This document shows positions 12,703-64,000 of a stretch of DNA of 64,000 nucleotides, piece after piece (positions within the stretch are counted from its first letter, which is position 1; each line of letters opens with the position of its first letter). This stretch comes from Flaccisagitta enflata. Its lineage: Eukaryota. The notes under the pieces were generated by a model, which was not told where the DNA came from, searched no databases, and worked only from the letters and a program-made list of their open reading frames with translations. The position numbers were made by a program, and so were the translations under genes. The DNA is taken from contig OZ231126.1 in the NCBI GenBank assembly GCA_965153355.1, positions 42,160,001-42,224,000 of the forward strand. Direction: 5' to 3'.

Positions 12703-15808
<3,106 letters not shown>

Positions 15809-50740: not shown

Positions 50741-51074
50741 ATTCTTGAGTCTTATATTGAAAATTGGACGGCTAAAGAAAGGAAACAAGGTAACATATTG
50801 GTAAAAAAAGAAGATTTAGATTTATGGAAAAATGAGATACTAAGAGTAGTAGACAACAAAATAAGTCGAGGTAAAACTTTATTTAAAAGGACCTGGTCGA
50901 AAAGATTAGATGGTAGTCTAGCCACAGAATTGGCAAGATTGAAACAGGATTTTGTCATTACTGTGGCAGATAAAGCTCAAAATAACATTTTATTCACTTG
51001 TAAATATTTTTATATAAAAAACTTAAAGGAAGAATTGACACGACCAGGTCAATTAACCTATCAATTGTCAAATA
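50741..51074 (+). CDS. Penelope-like (Naiad-type) retroelement RT ORF, 5' part; 5'-truncated and interrupted by a DNA transposon
   Basis: Open frame ILESYIENWTAKERKQ...LKQDFVITVADKAQNNILFTCKYFY...TYQLSN. The ADK(A)xNN motif is typical of the region just N-terminal of PLE RT cores. The frame runs into the transposon TIR at 51075. Confidence 0.85.
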
Positions 51075-53201
51075 CACTCAAAAAAAACTTTTTTTTTCTA
51101 ATAATTATAGCAAAAAATTATATCAATCGCGGACGAAATTATACCACATAACAATTATATCGATATTATATCGATATTATATCGAAATTATAATTTTTTT
51201 ATCAAAATTATATCGAAATTATATCGAAATTATATCGAAATTATATCGCAGTGGTGCCATATGGTCAATATAACAGTTTTATTCAACCAATATAACTGTT
51301 TTAAGACAACTTACAACAATTATATTGATAATTATAATAATTATATTTTGGATTATCTAATAATTATACCATGAGCTATAATAGTTAGATCCCAAAATAT
51401 AATAATTATATTTGGTCCGGCGAGCTTAAAAAAAAAACCCAGGCTGGGCACCTGCTTCGAGTAAAATACTCGAAGCAGGTGCCCAGCCTGGGTTTTTTTT
51501 TAAGATCGCTGGACAAAATATAATTTTATCAAAATACTCGAAACAGTGAATTGAAAAAGTCGCATAACAATAAATGGCGCCAATGACAAATTTGTGTACA
51601 ACGTGGTGCATTGTATGAACATTAACACTTTGAATGACGAGAACGAAGCCGTTTCGAAACACTTTCCACCACTGGCACATCAGCTAACTAAACTTATCAA
51701 AACAGACAGATTCTAGATAACGAAGCCATGGTAATCGCATGAAATGTTGAAGCGGAAAAGAAATGGAATTAAACAAAGGGGAGTTTTATTTTTATACAAA
51801 CAAAACAATTGTTACAAGAAGTTACATTTCTTTGTGGGACAAATGAATGTATTTGGCAGGCGTTTTATTGCGGAATGAAATAAACCATAATATAACTGTT
51901 TTATTGCAGTTTTACGCGTGAAAAACTGAGCATTTTGCGACTCTCTCGGGCCATATACTTAAACAAGGCCAACACCTATAAGTCGCGTGCAAGACTTACA
52001 GACTTAGAATGACTTAGAATGACTTTGAATGACTTAGAATGACTTAAAATGACCAAAAACAACTTAAAATGACTAAAAAACCTAATAACCAAAAATGACT
52101 TAAAATGACTTAGAATAACTTGAAGTGACTTAGAATGACTCAAAATGACTTAGAATGACTCAAAATGACTTATAATAACTATTAATGACTTTAAATGACT
52201 TAAAATAACTTAAGAAATGATGTTATATTGTAAAAAAGTAAAGTGTGACGGACCGACGGACCGACGGACGGATGGACCGACGGACGGACCGACGGACGGA
52301 CCGACAAAGCGGGTTGCAGAGTCGCGTAGCACGCGACTAAAAATTGGCAAACGTTCCGGCCGGATCTAACAATTATAATCAGGTGTACGTTGGTGTTGTG
52401 CGGCGGTAAAAAAAGCTCGTAAGATCTAACTATTATAATTAGCGTTACTATGGTTTTATTAAGGCCTAAGAAAACGTTCGCCGGGGATCTAACAAATATA
52501 CTCGACCATTGCCAGTCGGGCTCGCCCCTCACAATTTGACAGAGCCCGAGACAAAAACCTTGAGCCCGGTAAAAATGTTATGCCAAATTTTACAATCATA
52601 TCAGCCTAGATTTGTAAAAGTAGCCAATGACTAAATGGTATAATGATAAAATAATCACTACAAAGATGATTCAGTTTGTGAAAGAAATCAAAAAAATAAA
52701 AAACGACTGAAAACTTGATGATTTTTCAAATATTTAACTCAATCAGCTTGAGCACTTTGAATCCACCCCATTAATGACAGAGAGCCAGCCGGGCTCAGAG
52801 CTTGCAAAACATGAGAGCCCGAGAGCAAAATAGAGAGCACCGGGCTCGCGGGCTCGCTCTAAAATCAGGCCTGATTATACGCCTATTCTACCGCGCACGC
52901 CTTTCCTCGCCTTCCTCAGCGTGCTGTCCATTTTCGTTCTCAGCGTCGATCGAGATTCGTTTTTGCGTCGTCCTTTTGTCCAATTTCGTATTTCCGGCAC
53001 TTGCGCTGAGCTTCCTCGTATCTCGACTGTGGAGAGGATTCTCCGTCGATTCCGATCGTCTTTTTGCGCAAAACGCGTTTTTTGCGCATAACTCGTTTTC
53101 CGCTCGGCGCTCCTTTTTCTCGTCTAGATTTGGTGTCTCCTCTCATCCTGGTCGTTGAGTGGTGGTCGCTGGATATTTTTGCGTTAACAAAGTAGTTCAC
53201 A

Positions 53202-57505: not shown

Positions 57506-58020
57506 GGCGGCGGCGGCGGTTCGTCGAGGACGCGATTAGGATGCGGTTGGCGGGAGACTGGAAGTTCGAGGCGCCGTTAATCGAGTTAGTTCATGTACCC
57601 CTAAGTGTCCTCCGCCTTTTCCCCGCATTTGCCGATCCTGAGTGTCGTGGTGCCGGAGCTAGACGTTGTTGTTGCTGTGGGCGGCGGCGGTTTGTCGGAG
57701 GCGCAGTTGGGATGCGGTTGGCGGGCAGCTGGAGGTTCGGAGGGCCGTGAATCGAGTTGGTTCATGTACCCCTAAGTGTCCTCCACCTTTTCACCGCATT
57801 TGACGATCCTGAGTGCCGTGGTGCCGAAGCTAGACGTTGTTGTTGCTGTGGGCGGCGGCGGTTCGTCGAGGACGGGATGCGGATGCGTTTGACGACGGAC
57901 TGGAGGCTCGTGGCGTCGCAGATCGAAGTGGTTCATGTACCCACAGTTGTGCTTCACCTTTTTGCCGGATTTGACGATCGTGGGTGTTGTACAACCGAAG
58001 TTATATGTTGTTGTCGCCGA
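57506..58020. repeat. GC-rich ~171-bp tandem repeat, 3 copies
   Basis: GGCGGCGGCGGTT(C/T)GTCG...GTTCATGTACCC...TGTTGTTG units at ~57506, ~57680 and ~57851. Confidence 0.85.
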
Positions 58021-58051
58021 TGGTGTTTGCCTCTGGCGGCTTCTCACAATG

Positions 58052-58785
58052 CACTATGTTCTGAGAGCGACTCAAAATTGGACAAAAATCATCTGATAGA
58101 TTTCTTATGTTTTAATGTTGTAAAATTACATATTATATATAAAAAATAATATTTTTTTTATTTTTTGCCTTTTTTGTTATTTTTTTTTAATAGAAAATCA
58201 CAAGAATAACCAAAATGACTAAGATACCTGATATGATTAAAATGACTAAAATGATTAAAATGATTAAATTAACTAAAATGACCAAAATGACTTAGATGAC
58301 CAAAGTGACTAAAATGACCCAAATCACAAAAAATCACAAAAAAACACAAAAATGACAAAAATGACAAAAATTAAAAAAAAATGACAAAAATGACAAAAAA
58401 TGATAAAAAATGACAAAAATGACAAAAATGACAAAAAATGACAAAAATGACAAAAATGACAAAAATGACAAAAATGAAAATAAATGACAAAAAATGACAA
58501 AAAATGATAAAAATGACAAAAATGACAAAAATGACGAAAATGACGAAAATGACAAAAATGACAAAAAATGAAAATAAATGACAAAAAATGACAAAAATGA
58601 CAAAAATGACAAAAAATGACAAAAAATGACAAAAAATGACAAAAAATGACAAAAAAATGACAAAAATGACTAAAAAGGAAATAAATAATATTTTTTCGAA
58701 ATAATATATAAATTTACAGTATTATAACATAATAAATCCATCAGATAAATTTTGTCCAATTTTGAGTCACTCTCAGAACAAAGTG
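58052..58785. mobile_element. Transib/RAG-like MITE with RSS-like TIRs, nested in the large transposon
   Basis: ~46-bp TIRs starting CACTATG and CACTTTG. 5-bp TSD CAATG at 58047-58051 and 58786-58790. The interior is largely an (AAAATGAC)n-like minisatellite. Confidence 0.88.
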
Positions 58786-60530
58786 CAATGAGGCCAAGTC
58801 AGAGGTTCCTTTACACTCGATATTTTTGGGCCATTGTTGCTTGACAACAGTGTTTTTTGGAACACGTATGATGCTCCGCTCGCCTTCGGAATTCGTACGG
58901 AAGCTTCTCCGGTGGCGGCGGCGGCGGCGGTGTGAAAATGTCCGCTCGCCGGCCGCGCCGTTTGATGATAAACGCGGATCTCTATAGGCTGTCCAGCCGG
59001 GCCGTTCGTCGTTCGAATATCGGTGTAAAATGCGAGAAATCCGGGTCTCTAGCAAGCCGCAAAACAGTCACGATATGGATGTTACGCGCGCGCGATTCGG
59101 CACTTGATAAGTAGGGGTAAAATCGGTAATAAGGATGTAAAGAAAGCCAACAAGACAAAAATGCGGATACTCCCTCAAAACCTTATCAAAATGAGCGCAA
59201 AAATGAGTACAAAAATGGGCATGAAAATGAGCATGAAAATGGATATGAAAATGAGCACGAAAATGACAAATAACAATGATATCTAGATGATAATTCATGA
59301 GCGCCTCCAATATTCATCTCCGGCGAGGTCATTCAAAAGACCATTCATAAGTCCGTTCACGAGGCCATTCACGAAGCTATTCACGAGGCCATTCACGAAG
59401 CTATTCACGAGGCCATTCACTAGGCCATTCATCAGTCAGCTCGTAAGGCCATTCATATAGGATGAGTCATTCGTGAGTTATTCATCTCCTCCGCCATTCA
59501 TTCATCACCTCCTTCATTCATTCTCCTCGTCCTTCATTCATTTCCCGTTCAGTCATATAAATTCATTCTCCTCCGTCATTCACGGCGTCGACCGTCCAGC
59601 ATCTTCGCGTTTGCGCTTCTCCAACGATTTTGGGGCACGAAAGCCGAGTCCGTCCAAAGTTAGCTTGGTGAAGGGTGCGCAGCATCCCCACCAGGCGTGA
59701 ACAAATTTTACACAATCGTCGAATTTTTGCTGCAGTACGCTGGGCGTGCTGCGCTGCCGCTCGAAAAACGTTTACGAATCTGGAAAAGGGGGGAAAAAAA
59801 GAATTAGTCCAATACAAAAACGGGCAGCATCCCCAACAGGCGCGAACAAATAATTGTAAAAATTTTACGCAATCGTCGATTTTTTGCTGCGGTCCGCAGC
59901 AGTACGCTGGGCGTGCTGCGCTGCCGCTGTTGCCTAATCTGCGGCGAGAGGAATTTCCGTCATTGAACAAAAGAGCAACCTTCTGGGTGTTCTTGGAAAA
60001 ATGAAATGGTCGATAGGTGTCGTATTTCGGCGTTGTCTTTTTTGTACGAAAAAGAACAATTACATGACTGTCTATTTTGTTAAAGTGGCTGTACGTTATA
60101 ATCGTTATAGTTTAGAAAACTCTGTCGCCAAAAATGGATTGCATTTTTACTAAAGTTTTTCCACAATCTAATTATAATACTTCAGATGTCTCTAACGCGG
60201 GAAAAAATGAGCATTTTGCGCAACTCTTTCGGACCATATACTTATTATATTGCGAAAACACTTTGATTTTTGGTGAGACTTAATGTTATGGCACTTTATG
60301 AAAAATCGCGAAGTAAAAGTGATATAAAAAATATATTAATGAATCCAGATTTTTTAGGCTAGCTTCAATATGATATAATTAAAATATTCCACTGTTTTCC
60401 GGCAAAATGGGTGGGATGAAATATAATTTCGATATAATGACTGTATAATTGTTATGTCATATAATTTCGTCCGCGATTGATATAATTTTTTGCTATAATT
60501 ATTAGAAAAAAAAAGTTTTTTTTGAGTGTA

Positions 60531-61717
60531 AGGGACAAAATGATATTAATAAAGATATAATTAATTTTTCAAAATGCAAGGGTATTAAAGTTCCAGAGAA
60601 TATGGGAGACCTGCCTCTGATATATTGGATACCCAAAATGCATAAGAATCCAATAGGCAGTAGATTTATTGCAGGATCCAAATTTTGTTCAATCAAGATG
60701 CTCTCAAAATACTTTTCTAAGGCTTTGAAATTAATTTTACATCATATGAAGCTATATAATAAAACAGTTTTTGAGAGGACATGTTTGAATTGTTTTTGGA
60801 TTTTGGATAACTCTTTAGAATTTTTGGAAAAAATAAAATCTGAAAGGATAAACCATATGGAAACATATGATTTTTCCACTCTATATACGGCCTTGCCTCA
60901 TGGAGAAATAAAACGTAAATTTTCAGCTATTTTTCAGAAAGTTTTTAATAGGGAGGCAAGGCCATACATAAGTGTCAATATGAATGAGGCTTATTTTAGT
61001 CCTACAAAGGCTAAAAATAAATTTTCATTCAGATCGGCAGACATGCAGGAAATTTTAGAATTTATATTGGATAATATTTATGTAAAATTTGGTGCAAATG
61101 TATATAAGCAAGTGATAGGTATTCCTATTGGTCTTGATTCTGGACAGGATATTGCTAATTTACTTTTATATAGTTATGAATCAGACTATGTGGGTGAAAT
61201 TTCTAAGGTAGATCTTCCGACAGCAAGGAAATTTAAGCTTAATGGAAGATATATTGATGATCTTTTTGTAGCTAATTTTCCAACCTTTAGGGATCATATC
61301 TATGAAATATACCCTCAAGACCTAGAAATTAAATTAGAATCTAATAATACCCAGGAAGTAACATACTTAGACTTAAAAATTAAATCGGAAAATTCTACTC
61401 TAAATTTTTCTGTCTATGATAAACGTGATGATTTCTCTTTTGATATTGTCAATTTTCCCTACATAGACAGCTGTATACCAAAGAAATCAGCCTTGGGTGT
61501 TTATTTAAGTCAATTGATAAGATATGCTAAATTGTCATCTAAATATGAAGATTTTTTACAAAGAAGCAGATCTTTGGTTGATAAACTAAAGACCCAAGGC
61601 TACAAAGAACATGATTTAAAACGACTAACTTCAAGATTTTTTAGGGAAAAACATGATATTCTAATAAAATATAATATTCCTAATACAGATGATTTTTTGA
61701 AAAATATATTTGAATAA
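60531..61717 (+). CDS. Penelope-like (Naiad-type) reverse transcriptase, 3' part (RT core and thumb, no C-terminal endonuclease)
   Basis: RT motifs IYWIPKMHKNP-SRFI, TYDFSTLYT, YKQVIGIPIG, YIDD, YLDL, VYDKRDDF. Open from 60533 (GQNDINK...) and in frame with the 50798 fragment once 51075-60530 is removed. Stop at 61715-61717 with no GIY-YIG domain following in the same ORF. Confidence 0.95.
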
Positions 61718-63042
61718 AATTTTGGTGGGAGGCTATGAGAATCTTTTGACCCACTTGTCGCAGACCATAGCCAAACACCATCTTAGTTTTAATATAGTCC
61801 CTAAATTTTGGTGAAAGGCTGTGTTTCTCTTGACCAACTTGTCGTAGTTACATAGCTGGACACCTTTTGGGAAATTTTAACACTTTTCTAAAATAATATT
61901 CATATTTTAATATAAGTGTTTCTATTTTGACCTTGTGTCGCAGATTCACTTTATCTTCTTATATAAAAAAAATATTTTTAACATATGTGTTTCTATTTTG
62001 ACCTTGTGTCACAGATTCACTTTTTCCTGAAAACAATTTTTAACTGGTGTCTAAAATGACTAAAGAAAAAAAATAATTTTTCCTATAATAAAGGATTTTG
62101 AAATTGGTTGGGAGGAAGCCATGATTTTCAATCCCATGGCCGATTCCTGATGATTTTCTTGATCTCTTCAAACCAAACAGTGGAGGGCACTTTGTTGAAG
62201 TGCGACCCGCCTGTACTTGGGTCTTGGAGGTGTATATATATGTATGTGGATACTTTTGTATGTATATATGTATATATATATGGGTCGAAACCCTTTAAGG
62301 TACAGGACTCCAACTGATGACCAGAAGCTGTATGGTTTGATAGTTTTATAAAAAAAATTTTTGGACATGTACTAAAACTTTTTTACCCTTCATGGTGACC
62401 TATCATCCCATGATATATCTTCTTTGAAGATGAAGGCCTTTTTCCCTTTAATCACTAAAAATCATAACCATAACCATATATAGTATAAATTCTCCTAAAT
62501 CCCACCCCCCTAATTAGGATAAAGGGGCTCAACTAGGGATATGGACACCTTGGTTCCCTTTTTCAATTAGGTCAACTTTAACCAAAATTGGGCTGAGTTG
62601 ATGGTCCCGATCAATGCCAGAAGACAGCTCTAACAACACCCTTTCCCTAAAATATTCATTATTTCTAAATAAAATATTTAGATATTCATTTTTAAGATAG
62701 GAAAATATGACACATTTAGTAAAAAGTATATGCCTAAGGAATTTTGTTAGTGTTTCAAAAGACCACAGATTAGGTATGTATGTGTATGTAATGGAAGCTT
62801 ACACTATATAAATGTCCATATCTTTTCCAAATTTTGTTCAATTTCTGTTTCCTTTTGATTAATTGTATGAGTTTTATATAGGATAAATTGTTGCACAAGC
62901 CACATAGTTTAGTGCCTTGGTATAGAATGTCCGGCGGTCCCATTTGGTGACTCTCGATTCTTGCCTTTAGGGCATGGTTTCTTTCAACAGTATTATAACT
63001 GTAATACAAAATATTGTAACAAATCTTTATTCCTCAACAATT

Positions 63043-64000
63043 ATGGCGAACGAAACTTTAATAAAAAAATGCAATGGGCGATCCTGTGGTACGTGTCCAT
63101 TTTTAGAAGAAAAAAATTGTTTTCATTCAAATTCTACAGGACAAAGACATAAACCTTTAACAGCAGATCAGGATTTTCTAACTTGTAAATCAGAAAATGT
63201 TATTTACATGATTTATTGTCAGGTTTGCAATATTCAATATATAGGTGAAACTAAACAAAAGTTAATAAGAAGATTTAGTAATCATAAGACTAACATAAAT
63301 GGTAAAAAGTCAGGCCAAGTTGTTCATAAACATTTTGAAGAAAGTGGCCATGGCATTTCCAATCTTAGAGTAATTCCCATAGAAAAAATAGATAAGAATA
63401 ATGTTAATTTGCGAGGCTTAAATGAAATCCAGAAGGATAAGGCAATAACTAAATACAGGCTAGAACGTGAGAAAATTTGGATTTCAAAATTGCAGACTGC
63501 TTATCCCTTTGGATTAAATATTTCTGTCAAAGGGGTCGGTGACTTTAATGTTTCCCAGGGACTGTACCAAAATTTTGAAGGACGAAAAAGGAGAAAAAAT
63601 AAAAAACATTCTAGAAGAAAACCAAAAAGGTTAAGAAATAACAATGATATATCTATGGATTTTTTAAAAAGAAAACATACTGAGCTTAGAGATAAAGATA
63701 ATTATATTCATTTCTTTAAAACCTTTTTATATGGTCTACCTAGACAACAGTTACAAACATTACAAAATAATGCAAGACAGGATAATATGATAGATGATAG
63801 ATTAAGAGATATGATAAATATGATTTCCCACCAGAAATTATTTAAACCAGTCCAAACTAATATAAAGAAGGATAGAGATTTTTATCATATTCAATTTAGA
63901 GACAAAGGACTGGATCATATCAATATAAGCCAAATACTTAGAAATAAAAGTGTCACAGATAAGATTCCAATTTATTTTACTGATAAGGAGCCTCCTATAA
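63043..64000 (+). CDS. N-terminal GIY-YIG endonuclease ORF of a second Naiad-type PLE copy (runs off the window end)
   Basis: Hand-translated with no stop from ATG 63043 to 64000: MANETLIKKCNGRSCGTCPF...TCKSENVIYMIYCQVCNIQYIGETKQKLIRRFSNHK...HKHF...RLEREKIWISKLQTAYPFGLN...FRDKGLDHINISQILRNK...IPIYF. Contains VIY/YIG motifs, CxxC plus His residues, and the R, E and GLN motifs. Confidence 0.93.
   Translation, partial: MANETLIKKCNGRSCGTCPFLEEKNCFHSNSTGQRHKPLTADQDFLTCKSENVIYMIYCQVCNIQYIGETKQKLIRRFSNHKTNINGKKSGQVVHKHFEESGHGISNLRVIPIEKIDKNNVNLRGLNEIQKDKAITKYRLEREKIWISKLQTAYPFGLNISVKGVGDFNVSQGLYQNFEGRKRRKNKKHSRRKPKRLRNNNDISMDFLKRKHTELRDKDNYIHFFKTFLYGLPRQQLQTLQNNARQDNMIDDRLRDMINMISHQKLFKPVQTNIKKDRDFYHIQFRDKGLDHINISQILRNKSVTDKIPIYFTDKEPPI

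What the first reader, a model, noticed from the sequence alone, without database searches (positions are those of the whole stretch)
62186..62335. Hammerhead core pieces in a non-canonical, pseudoknotted order between the tandem PLE copies
Seen: GGGTC|TTGGAG (62219-62229), CGAAACCC (62286-62293) and CTCCAA-CTGATGA (62308-62320). TTGGAG pairs with CTCCAA (stem I, directly flanking a GUC triplet and CUGAUGA), and GGGT pairs with ACCC of GAAACCC (stem III). However, the GAAA strand lies inside loop I, before CUGAUGA, which fits none of types I-III. Extra helices: CCTGTAC (62210-62216)/GTACAGG (62300-62306), GACCC/GGGTC and GCACTT/AAGTGC. Stem II is poor (CC/GG with unpaired TC). Established: canonical PLEs carry hammerheads in their pLTRs, whereas Naiads were reported to lack canonical ones. 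Inference: this could be a topological variant ribozyme, or a different structured RNA that processes tandem transcripts.
Basis: partly seen in the sequence, partly recalled or inferred. Interest (0 to 1): 0.8.

Follow-up and report, generated by a model that had tools for sequence, protein, structure and literature searches.

The report
Rearranged hammerhead ribozyme in Naiad retrotransposons
The untranslated tail of a Naiad-type jumping gene carries every part of a hammerhead self-cutting RNA in a scrambled, knotted order that distant relatives keep through matching base changes, so these elements, reported to lack such ribozymes, probably carry an unrecognised form of one.

Summary
All motifs sit at the stated coordinates. 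They lie in the 3' UTR of a 5'-truncated Naiad copy, upstream of the next copy's GIY-YIG ORF.

The same strand order recurs in 5 independent Naiad lineages: window, L004, L002/L001, L006 and the L010 family, with RT identity down to 36-45%. The order is P0 hairpin, stem II 5' strand, Ha, stem III, H17 cleavage site, stem I, short linker, stem II 3' strand, GAAA, stem III, Ha, stem I, CUGAUGA.

- CUGAUGA, GAAA, A15.1-U16.1 and G10.1-C11.1 are invariant.
- 108 of 110 cells pair, and 13 of 22 pairs show compensatory changes.
- 0 of 15,694 decoys reach the observed score.

Stem II is GACCC(62204-08)/GGGUC(62282-86).

The closest known kind is the non-circularly permuted type-SGC hammerhead of Eckert et al. 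2023 (PMC10085705), which was shown to cleave. It shares the short I-to-II linker and the fourth helix. Here the CUGAUGA block is split from its stem II strand, which that study assumed cannot happen. No Rfam hammerhead matches. Cleavage after C62223 is inferred, not shown. The window copy has a 52-nt hairpin inserted in the linker.

The parts
60545..61717 (+). C-terminal RT part of the upstream, 5'-truncated Naiad copy (pseudo-LTR). The stop codon ends at 61717.
   Evidence: Open frame 60506-61717. tblastn of the 944-aa L001 frame: residues 556-944 match 60545-61711 at 66%. 994 relatives at E<=1e-10.
62173..62180 (+). Pc 5' strand (CCAAACAG), the closing helix formed by the two flanks.
   Evidence: Pairs with 62328-62335. 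Counted from the anchored CAG/CUG, 9 of 10, 8 of 10 and 8 of 10 positions pair in window, L004 and L002, with AU>UA and CG>UA changes. It is mis-registered by one column in MAFFT alignment A2, where only 46.9% of cells pair. Inferred, moderate support.
62187..62203 (+). P0 hairpin (GCACUUU/AAGUGC) directly 5' of stem II.
   Evidence: A hairpin 0-1 nt before G10.1 folds in all 6 sequences tested, with unrelated sequences.
62204..62208 (+). Stem II 5' strand, G10.1-C10.5 (GACCC).
   Evidence: Pairs with 62282-62286. The relatives have GGCGC:GCGCC (L004), GCGGC:GCCGC (L002), GGACCC:GGGUCC (L006) and GGCUCC:GGAGCC (L010, L012). G10.1-C11.1 is invariant in 7 of 7. In A2, 100% of cells pair and 3 of 5 pairs change on both sides.
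62210..62218 (+). Ha 5' strand (CCUGUACUU), the fourth helix.
   Evidence: Pairs with 62298-62306. 94.4% of cells pair in A2. Ha4, Ha5 and Ha7 have compensatory changes across lineages.
62219..62223 (+). Stem III 5' strand 16.4-16.1 (GGGU) plus C17. The predicted cleavage is between C62223 and U62224.
   Evidence: GGGU:ACCC in the window, GGGU:ACUC in L004, GAGU:ACUC in L002 and L006, UGGU:ACCA in the L010 family. U16.1-A15.1 is invariant. H17 is C or A in 7 of 7. The cleavage site is inferred by analogy with hammerheads.
62224..62229 (+). Stem I 5' strand 1.1-1.6 (UUGGAG).
   Evidence: Pairs with 62308-62313. L002 has UCGAAA:UUUCGA, L006 has UUAGG:CCUAA, L012 has UAGGAU:AUCUUA. Positions I2-I6 all show double-sided changes. 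In A2, 100% of cells pair.
62230..62281 (+). 52-nt TA/TG-rich self-complementary insertion in linker L (stem I to stem II).
   Evidence: Tandem repeat rows. Folds alone as a hairpin of -21.9 kcal/mol, z=-4.8. The relatives have only 2-5 nt here.
62282..62289 (+). Stem II 3' strand 11.5-11.1 (GGGUC) followed by G12 A13 A14.
   Evidence: CGAAAC is invariant in alignment A2 and in L006 and L010-L012.
62290..62293 (+). Stem III 3' strand 15.1-15.4 (ACCC).
62298..62306 (+). Ha 3' strand (AGGUACAGG), 1 nt before stem I.
   Evidence: The 1-nt spacers on both sides of Ha are kept in all 7 sequences.
62308..62320 (+). Stem I 3' strand 2.6-2.1 (CUCCAA) followed by C3-A9 (CUGAUGA).
   Evidence: CUGAUGA is invariant in 7 of 7.
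62328..62335 (+). Pc 3' strand (CUGUAUGG).
   Evidence: Also part of the MFE fold of 62140-62345.
62995..63999 (+). N-terminal GIY-YIG endonuclease part of the downstream Naiad copy, which runs off the window.
   Evidence: Pfam PF01541, 26.7 bits against a cut-off of 22.6. Matches L001 frame residues 13-349 at 53%.

Best explanation
Window 62173-62335 (+) encodes a hammerhead-type self-cleaving ribozyme with a rearranged strand order. It lies in the 3' UTR (pseudo-LTR) of a Naiad Penelope-like retrotransposon.

The strand order, 5' to 3', is: Pc, P0 hairpin, stem II 5' strand (G10.1...), 1 nt, Ha 5', stem III 5' strand, C17, stem I 5' strand, linker L, stem II 3' strand, GAA, stem III 3' strand, 4 nt, Ha 3', 1 nt, stem I 3' strand, CUGAUGA, Pc.

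- Stems I, II and III meet at a complete hammerhead core.
- The fourth helix Ha ties together the outer ends of stems I and II, as in the validated type-SGC hammerheads.
- Unlike those, the CUGAUGA strand is not continuous with stem II. The chain is open between A9 and G10.1, and that gap is bridged by hairpin P0 and closing helix Pc.

On a transcript that runs through the pseudo-LTR, the RNA would cut itself after C62223. That leaves ...GGGUC with a 2',3'-cyclic phosphate and a 5'-OH RNA starting UUGGAG. Tandem or read-through transcripts would thus be trimmed, as proposed for canonical PLE hammerheads.

Shown: the sequence pieces, their conservation, covariation of all helices, and the position in the element. 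Inferred: the hammerhead fold, the cleavage and its site, and the biological role.
For: (1) The coordinates are verified.

(2) Of the 3' UTR between the ORFs, only this block and one downstream block (62380-62511) are alignable to relatives with 63-66% RT identity. CUGAUGA, CGAAAC and GUC are invariant in A2.

(3) The same order and spacing occur in L006 and in L010, L011 and L012, at 36-45% RT identity.

(4) In 5 lineages 108 of 110 cells pair and 13 of 22 pairs change on both sides. With the 3' partner slid by 1-3 columns, 28-55 of 110 cells pair and 2-3 pairs change. 0 of 2000 column shuffles reach either observed value.

(5) The tool count on A2 gives stems II, III and I at 100% and Ha at 94.4%. 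0 of 500 shuffles reach the observed covariation score.

(6) G10.1-C11.1 and A15.1-U16.1 are kept and H17 is never G in 7 of 7 sequences.

(7) Model R1, built without the window, finds it at E=2.3e-12 and L006 at E=0.0013.

(8) 0 of 15,694 decoys reach the observed score.

(9) Eckert et al. 2023 (sections read) showed that S-G-C ordered hammerheads cleave at the predicted site. Those have a linker of about 3 nt from stem I to stem II and a fourth helix joining the other sides, and all four helices are needed. The linker (2-5 nt in the relatives) and Ha match this.

(10) In the L010 family the copies stay alike until about 65-70 nt past CUGAUGA, so the whole motif lies near the element's 3' end. 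This is where canonical PLEs carry their hammerheads (PMC8557442).
Against: - No cleavage data exist for any of these sequences.
- The break between A9 and G10.1 has no precedent. [quoted passage not shown]
- Ha is joined to the far end of stem III by 0-2 nt on one strand. In the L010 family, III plus Ha form a hairpin of about 22 bp. Stems II and III stack in the crystal structure, so a monomer fold is not obviously possible. Eckert et al. flag the same puzzle for a few SGC members.
- There are only 5 independent lineages. Anchors r and t were chosen by maximising pairing, which is offset only by the decoy control.
- Two other Naiad loci (L007, L008) have no CTGANGA in about 1 kb 3' of the RT, so the motif is not universal.
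- Only 3 of 11 aligned L010-family copies keep CUGAUGA, GAAA and all strands.
- The window copy has a 52-nt insertion in L and may be impaired.
- For a canonical PLE (Poseidon PAc), hammerhead mutants did not affect insertion in vitro (PMC11167929, passages). The role is therefore unclear even if cleavage occurs.
Confidence: 0.65

Rival explanations
1. The same RNA works only as a dimer or in trans. The III+Ha hairpin stays intramolecular, while stems I and II form between two copies: two RNAs, or the two pseudo-LTR copies of one transcript. This is a variant of the best explanation, not exclusive of it.
For: A domain-swapped dimer closes geometrically for any length of the III+Ha hairpin (own reasoning from the strand order). 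A monomer needs Ha to be about as long as III + core + II, which fails in the L010 family (Ha 8 bp, III about 14 bp). Minimal hammerheads of canonical PLEs are reported to cleave as dimers (Lunse et al. 2017, seen only as reference 58, otherwise recalled).
Against: Nothing was computed to support it. The type-SGC ribozymes with the same fourth helix cleaved co-transcriptionally as single short RNAs. The window clade's helix lengths (Ha 9, III 4, II 5) could allow a folded-back monomer.
Confidence: 0.2
2. It is a conserved structured 3' UTR RNA that is not catalytic, for example a recognition or priming element for the Naiad RT. Its hammerhead-like core letters would be a relic of an ancestral ribozyme.
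For: Covariation proves structure, not catalysis. The core strand is interrupted at A9/G10.1. PLE RTs start reverse transcription at internal 3' sites, and in PAc the hammerhead is dispensable in vitro. L006 carries CUGAUG directly 5' of G10.1 inside P0, which could be a relic of an older contiguous block.
Against: A relic would not keep all 11 core letters (CUGAUGA, GAAA), the A15.1-U16.1 and G10.1-C11.1 pairs and a non-G at position 17 across lineages whose RT is only 36-45% identical, while the helices change sequence freely.
Confidence: 0.13
3. It is a chance assembly of short words around a palindromic microsatellite at a junction of two insertions.
For: CTGATGA occurs 6 and 5 times on the two strands of the window, and a second copy lies at 62147. 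The loose descriptor gives about 0.6 hits per shuffled data set. The Rfam E-value scan only sees miRNA-like hairpins.
Against: The microsatellite is absent in all relatives while the flanks are kept. See also the compensatory changes, the independent CM hit and the decoys. The second CTGATGA at 62147 is not conserved.
Confidence: 0.02

Closest known systems
Type-SGC hammerhead ribozymes (HRIMA-1 motif and variants), Eckert, Friedrich, Weinberg & Weinberg, NAR 2023 (PMC10085705)
   Same: The block order is site, GAAA, CUGAnGA. There are two pseudoknots in the core. A short linker (typically 3 nt there, 2-5 nt in the relatives here) joins stem I directly to stem II. A fourth helix joins the other sides of stems I and II (Ha here). 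The far end of that helix is joined to the far end of stem III by few or no nucleotides.
   Different: There, CUGAnGA runs straight into the stem II strand at the 3' end and the 5' product is 15-18 nt. Here the stem II 5' strand lies 5' of the site block and is joined to Ha, and the chain is open between A9 and G10.1 with P0 and Pc in between. Formally this is a circular permutation of the SGC/GCS/CSG cycle opened inside block C, which that paper assumed could not be interrupted. Those RNAs come almost only from metatranscriptomes next to hairpin ribozymes. These lie in the DNA of animal-type retrotransposons.
Type-CSG hammerhead (2 metagenome sequences, same paper)
   Same: The stem II 5' strand precedes the site block, and the same helix joins stems I and II.
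   Different: In CSG the CUGAnGA precedes that strand contiguously at the 5' end. Here CUGAUGA is at the 3' end, after the GAAA block.
Canonical hammerheads of Penelope-like elements (minimal type I, in pLTRs; Cervera & de la Pena 2014; Lunse et al. 2017, both recalled or seen as citations only)
   Same: Host element class, location near the 3' end or pLTR on the sense strand, and the same core letters.
   Different: Those are nested three-way junctions found by Rfam or RNAmotif descriptors. This one is doubly pseudoknotted and no Rfam model finds it.
'HHR_core' / 'HHR_half_core' notes for some Naiads in Craig et al. 2021 (PMC8557442, Methods passage)
   Same: They saw CUGANGA and GAAA in Naiad UTRs that fit no descriptor, sometimes with the second half 'on either side' at 35-50 nt.
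   Different: No structure, helices, covariation or permutation was proposed, and the text concludes that Naiads lack canonical HHRs. The list is in supplementary file S1, which I could not open, so I cannot say whether this family is among them.

Membership tests
Hammerhead ribozyme (core definition) | CUGANGA strand between stems I and II | tested here: met
   CUGAUGA sits directly 3' of the stem I strand in 7 of 7 sequences. Its 3' side is not joined to stem II (see the contiguity row).
Hammerhead ribozyme (core definition) | GAAA between stems II and III, with the A15.1-U16.1 pair | tested here: met
   GAA plus A15.1 pairs with U16.1 in 7 of 7.
Hammerhead ribozyme (core definition) | Cleavage triplet NUH (position 17 not G) between stems III and I | tested here: met
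   GUC in window, L004 and L002. GUA in L006 and L010-L012.
Hammerhead ribozyme (core definition) | Three helices I, II and III around the core, supported by covariation, with G10.1-C11.1 | tested here: met
   II1 is G-C in 7 of 7.
Hammerhead ribozyme (core definition) | Contiguity of CUGANGA with the stem II strand (at most 1-2 inserted nt in all known members, per Eckert et al.) | tested here: not met
   No complement of the 11.x strand follows CUGAUGA in any lineage. The pairing strand lies upstream, after hairpin P0.
Hammerhead ribozyme (core definition) | Site-specific Mg2+-dependent self-cleavage | not testable with these tools
   Needs in vitro transcription.
Hammerhead ribozyme (Rfam models, types I-III) | Match to a curated covariance model | tested here: not met
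   0 matches at gathering score in the window and in 37 loci. No hammerhead among the 11 matches at E<=10. This is expected for a non-nested order.
Type-SGC hammerhead (Eckert et al. 2023) | 5'-to-3' order S, G, C with uninterrupted blocks | tested here: not met
   The order S, G, CUGAUGA is met, but block C is interrupted because its stem II half lies 5' of S.
Type-SGC hammerhead (Eckert et al. 2023) | Short direct linker from stem I to stem II, and a helix joining the other sides of I and II | tested here: met
   L is 2-5 nt in 6 of 7 sequences. The window has a 52-nt hairpin insertion. Ha pairs in 33 of 35 cells in 5 lineages.
Naiad clade of Penelope-like elements | Single ORF with N-terminal GIY-YIG endonuclease and C-terminal RT | tested here: met
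   GIY-YIG in the 62971-63999 frame. L001 has one 944-aa frame whose residues 13-349 and 556-944 match the two window ORFs. L001, L002, L007, L008 and L010 have EN 5' of RT.
Naiad clade of Penelope-like elements | Partial tandem (pLTR) organisation, and a CX2-5CxxC motif before GIY-YIG | tested here: met
   A truncated RT copy is followed by a copy with EN. C-NGRS-C-GT-C precedes the GIY-YIG region in P0002 (read by eye against the description). The CxC/DKA motifs and a phylogenetic placement were not tested.

The most novel reading that the evidence does not exclude
Naiads do not lack hammerheads. A large part of this very abundant invertebrate retrotransposon clade carries an active hammerhead of a new topology. 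In it the catalytic CUGAUGA strand is physically separated from stem II: the chain ends sit inside the core, between A9 and G10.1. The fourth helix is covalently continuous with stem III. This would break the 'uninterruptible block' rule used to enumerate hammerhead permutations. It would force either a new tertiary fold or obligate dimerisation. It would also imply that a hammerhead is ancestral to all endonuclease-bearing PLEs.
Probability: 0.5. Interest if true: 0.85.

Novelty: new variant of a known kind. Interest (0 to 1): 0.8.

Why it matters
Hammerheads are the best-studied small ribozymes, and only in 2023 were non-circular permutations found, in RNA agents of unknown hosts. A further permutation with an interrupted core strand would widen what searches must look for, especially in a retrotransposon clade that reaches tens of thousands of copies in oysters, clams and crabs (PMC8557442). 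It would give structural biologists a natural test of how the core tolerates a chain break at the A9/G10.1 metal site. It would also remove the main exception (Naiads) to the rule that endonuclease-bearing PLEs carry hammerheads. That sharpens the open question of what these ribozymes do for the elements. The prediction is directly testable: cleavage after C62223.

Tried and rejected
The sequence after CUGAUGA has no complement to the 11.x strand in any lineage.
- A canonical hammerhead using the second CTGATGA at 62147 is rejected. No GAAA or stem II follows it, and it is not conserved.
- A minus-strand hammerhead is rejected. The descriptor gave no minus-strand hit.
- No whole genome is held for this window. 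A self-BLAST of 60001-64000 found no second copy of the motif in the window.
- Earlier scan notes gave nothing.
- Viral contigs with P0002 and with A1, and genome contigs with A1, gave no relatives.
- MAFFT alignments A3, A4 and A5 misplace the window's insertion or shift L006. The CM alignment A7 also misplaces the loop region. The 5-lineage pair counts were therefore made on anchored coordinates in scripts, and the tool count only on A2. One search used a Pc register that was off by one and is superseded.
- Pc is weak in A2 because of a one-column MAFFT offset, so I give it only moderate weight.
- I first thought the element ends might lie in linker L, making a split ribozyme rebuilt only in tandems. 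This is rejected for the L010 family, whose copies run about 65-70 nt past CUGAUGA. It remains undecided for the window clade.
Full report
**What is in the window**

The region lies between two open frames on the + strand.
- Frame 60506-61717 is the C-terminal part of a reverse transcriptase.
- Frame 62971-63999 runs off the window and carries a GIY-YIG domain (PF01541, 26.7 bits against a cut-off of 22.6).
- A metagenome relative, L001, has one 944-aa frame. Its residues 556-944 match 60545-61711 at 66%, and its residues 13-349 match 62995-63999 at 53%.

The window therefore holds a 5'-truncated copy (a pseudo-LTR) followed by a copy that starts with the endonuclease. That is the Naiad layout described by Craig et al. 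2021 (PMC8557442; passages and section 6 read).

No Rfam family reaches its gathering score in the window. In 61500-63000 at E<=10, none of the 11 matches is a hammerhead; the best are miRNA-like matches to the hairpin.

**Relatives**

No genome is held for the window, and the window has no second copy of the motif. The RT fragment has 994 relatives at E<=1e-10, nearly all from metagenome assemblies. An alignment of 74 of them brought 37 metagenome loci.

BLASTN of the inter-ORF region against these loci aligned only a few blocks:
- 62178-62229 and 62286-62423 to L004;
- 62286-62334 and 62380-62511 to L002 and L001;
- 62903-62989 to L001.

In the alignment (A2) CUGAUGA, CGAAAC and GUC are invariant. 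The 52 bases 62230-62281 are absent from all relatives, which have about 5 nt there. That insert is TA/TG-rich and folds on its own into a hairpin of -21.9 kcal/mol.

A simple pattern (GAAAC, 12-40 nt, CTGANGA) then found the same arrangement 3' of the RT in more distant loci. These are L006 (41% RT identity) and L010, L011 and L012 (36-45%). L010 has the endonuclease 5' of the RT.

**Anatomy**

In all seven sequences the order is:
1. hairpin P0;
2. 0-1 nt;
3. a 5-6-nt strand beginning with G;
4. 1 nt;
5. Ha 5' strand;
6. 0-2 nt;
7. stem III strand ending in U;
8. C or A (position 17);
9. stem I strand;
10. a linker of 2-5 nt (52 nt plus in the window);
11. the complement of the first strand, ending in C;
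12. GAA;
13. stem III strand beginning with A;
14. 4-11 nt;
15. Ha 3' strand;
16. 1 nt;
17. stem I strand;
18. CUGAUGA.

It has G10.1-C11.1 in 7 of 7 sequences and changes completely between lineages: GGCGC:GCGCC, GCGGC:GCCGC, GGACCC:GGGUCC, GGCUCC:GGAGCC.

The two flanks can pair (Pc, 62173-80 with 62328-35). Anchored on the conserved CAG/CUG, 9, 8 and 8 of 10 positions pair in window, L004 and L002, with two compensatory columns. A hairpin sits just before G10.1 in all 6 sequences folded.

**Statistics**

On anchored coordinates for 5 lineages (window, L004, L002, L006, L012):
- 108 of 110 cells are standard pairs.
- 13 of 22 pairs have a change on both sides.
- With the 3' partner slid by 1-3 columns, only 28-55 of 110 cells pair and 2-3 pairs change.
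- None of 2000 column shuffles reaches either observed value.

With all 7 sequences, 146 of 154 cells pair. The misses are mostly in L010 and L011, which look like decayed copies.

The tool count on A2 has 4 rows, and L001 and L002 are nearly the same element.
- Stems II, III and I are 100% paired and Ha is 94.4% paired.
- Changes on both sides occur in 3 of 5, 1 of 4, 3 of 6 and 1 of 9 pairs respectively.
- 0 of 500 shuffles reach the covariation score.
- Pc scores only 46.9% there because MAFFT offsets its 5' strand by one column.

Because I chose two anchors by maximising pairing, I ran the same optimisation at 15,694 decoy positions without asking for any core letters. None reached the observed 21-22 of 22, and the maximum was 21.

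A descriptor of the whole arrangement gives 6 hits in 175,151 bases on both strands, all on the sense strand at the homologous place. Shuffled sets give 19 hits in 30 sets at loose thresholds and 12 hits in 100 sets at strict ones. The descriptor alone is therefore only moderately specific.

A covariance model built from L004 and L002 alone (nested helices only) finds the window at 55.6 bits (E=2.3e-12) and L006 at E=0.0013, and nothing else.

**Comparison with what is known**

Craig et al. 2021 state that Naiads lack canonical hammerheads. In their Methods they note that some have the core strings without fitting any descriptor ('HHR_core', 'HHR_half_core'), listed only in a supplementary file that I could not open.

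Eckert et al. 2023 (PMC10085705; abstract, sections 7, 13, 14, 15 and part 1 of the discussion read) discovered natural non-circular permutations of the hammerhead.
- They divide it into block S (site), block G (GAAA) and block C (CUGAnGA with both adjacent strands).
- They found type SGC (583 sequences, almost all from metatranscriptomes), type CSG (2 sequences) and type GCS (1 sequence).
- They showed cleavage at the predicted site and its dependence on stems I, II, III and a fourth helix.
- Their type SGC has a linker of about 3 nt from stem I to stem II, and a helix joining the other sides of stems I and II.

These are the linker L and helix Ha seen here. The difference is that they assumed the blocks cannot be interrupted. 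Here the stem II half of block C lies 5' of block S, so the chain is open between A9 and G10.1.

Read as a cycle (C, Ha, S, L, G, Ha, back to C), SGC, CSG and GCS are opened in connectors. This RNA is opened inside the core strand, with P0 and Pc at the opening.

Searches for Naiad with hammerhead or ribozyme, and for type-SGC or non-circular permutation, found no paper that links such ribozymes to Naiads or other PLEs (passages). Papers outside the held library could exist.

**How it most likely works**

By analogy, a transcript through the pseudo-LTR folds the III+Ha hairpin. The hairpin's loop strands then pair with the two flanks (stems I and II), and the core cuts after C62223.

In the L010 family, 11 aligned copies stay alike until about 65-70 nt past CUGAUGA and then diverge. 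The whole motif is therefore inside the 3'-terminal part of the element, as for canonical PLE hammerheads. For the window clade the exact element ends could not be seen, because all four loci are tandem contexts.

Cutting at both pseudo-LTR copies would release a unit-length RNA whose two ends can re-pair through II, III, Ha and Pc. What that serves is open. In a Poseidon element, hammerhead mutants did not change insertion in vitro (PMC11167929, passages).

**Doubts**

- The fold is not obviously compatible with the crystal structure. Ha is continuous with the far end of stem III, whereas stems II and III stack. In the window clade (Ha 9, III 4, II 5 bp) a folded-back monomer seems possible. 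In the L010 family (III about 14 bp plus Ha 8 bp) it does not. A domain-swapped dimer would close for any length (my reasoning, not computed). Eckert et al. raise the same puzzle for a few SGC members.
- The motif is not universal. L007 and L008 have no CTGANGA in about 1 kb 3' of the RT.
- Only 3 of 11 L010-family copies keep all parts.
- The window copy itself carries the 52-nt hairpin in L. That is the kind of insertion that can be tolerated, but it may slow the ribozyme.
- That an extra nucleotide between A9 and G10.1 is tolerated in a viroid hammerhead is something I recall, not something I checked.

**Verdict**

The closest known kind is the type-SGC hammerhead, and this is a new variant of it in a new biological setting. 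Catalysis is inferred.

Noticed in passing
window 62380-62511: A second conserved non-coding block (includes ACCCTTCATGG.GACCT.TCATCCCA.GA) lies about 60 nt 3' of the ribozyme. It is 75-76% identical to L002 and L001 and is also present in L004, although the rest of the UTR is unalignable. It could be the 5' end or promoter of the next copy, or another RNA element.
   Followed up: partly
window 61886-61955 and 61956-62026: A tandem duplication of about 70 nt (85% identical) in the 3' UTR, upstream of the ribozyme.
   Followed up: no
window 50741-51073 (+), and 51052-51182 against 60421-60550: Another Naiad RT fragment (L001 residues 440-550, 54%) lies 9.4 kb upstream. An inverted 130-nt match (89%) links its end to the start of the truncated copy. 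This suggests a complex or interrupted insertion, as described for PLEs.
   Followed up: no
L006 3081-3086: CUGAUG sits directly 5' of G10.1, as the 3' strand of hairpin P0 (CAUCAG...CUGAUG). This is where a contiguous block C would have its CUGAUGA, lacking only A9. It may be a relic of an ancestral contiguous (CSG-like or tandem) arrangement, or it may be chance (about 1 in 4096 at a fixed place).
   Followed up: partly
window 62147-62153: A second CTGATGA lies 57 nt upstream of stem II. It is not conserved in L004, L002 or L001 and has no partner strands.
   Followed up: yes
L031 5799-5860, L028 3392-3452, L018 1553-1660: In three loci the sequence 5' of the stem III strand is replaced by another sequence that the three share (GC-rich, ...GCGCGC...). 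These copies lack stem II and the Ha 5' strand. They are either recombinant or a different subfamily sharing only the 3' end. L020 has the ribozyme deleted, and L013 and L015 have internal deletions.
   Followed up: partly
window 57509-58021, 58194-58666, 59324-59455: Minisatellites just upstream of the element: 3 copies of a 171-nt unit, long arrays of 9-10-nt A-rich units (AAAATGAC-like) flanked by a 145-nt inverted repeat, and 8 copies of a 12-nt unit.
   Followed up: no
L007, L008: Two full Naiad loci (EN plus RT, 38-39% RT identity) have no CTGANGA within about 1 kb 3' of the RT, so at least one Naiad lineage lacks this motif there.
   Followed up: partly
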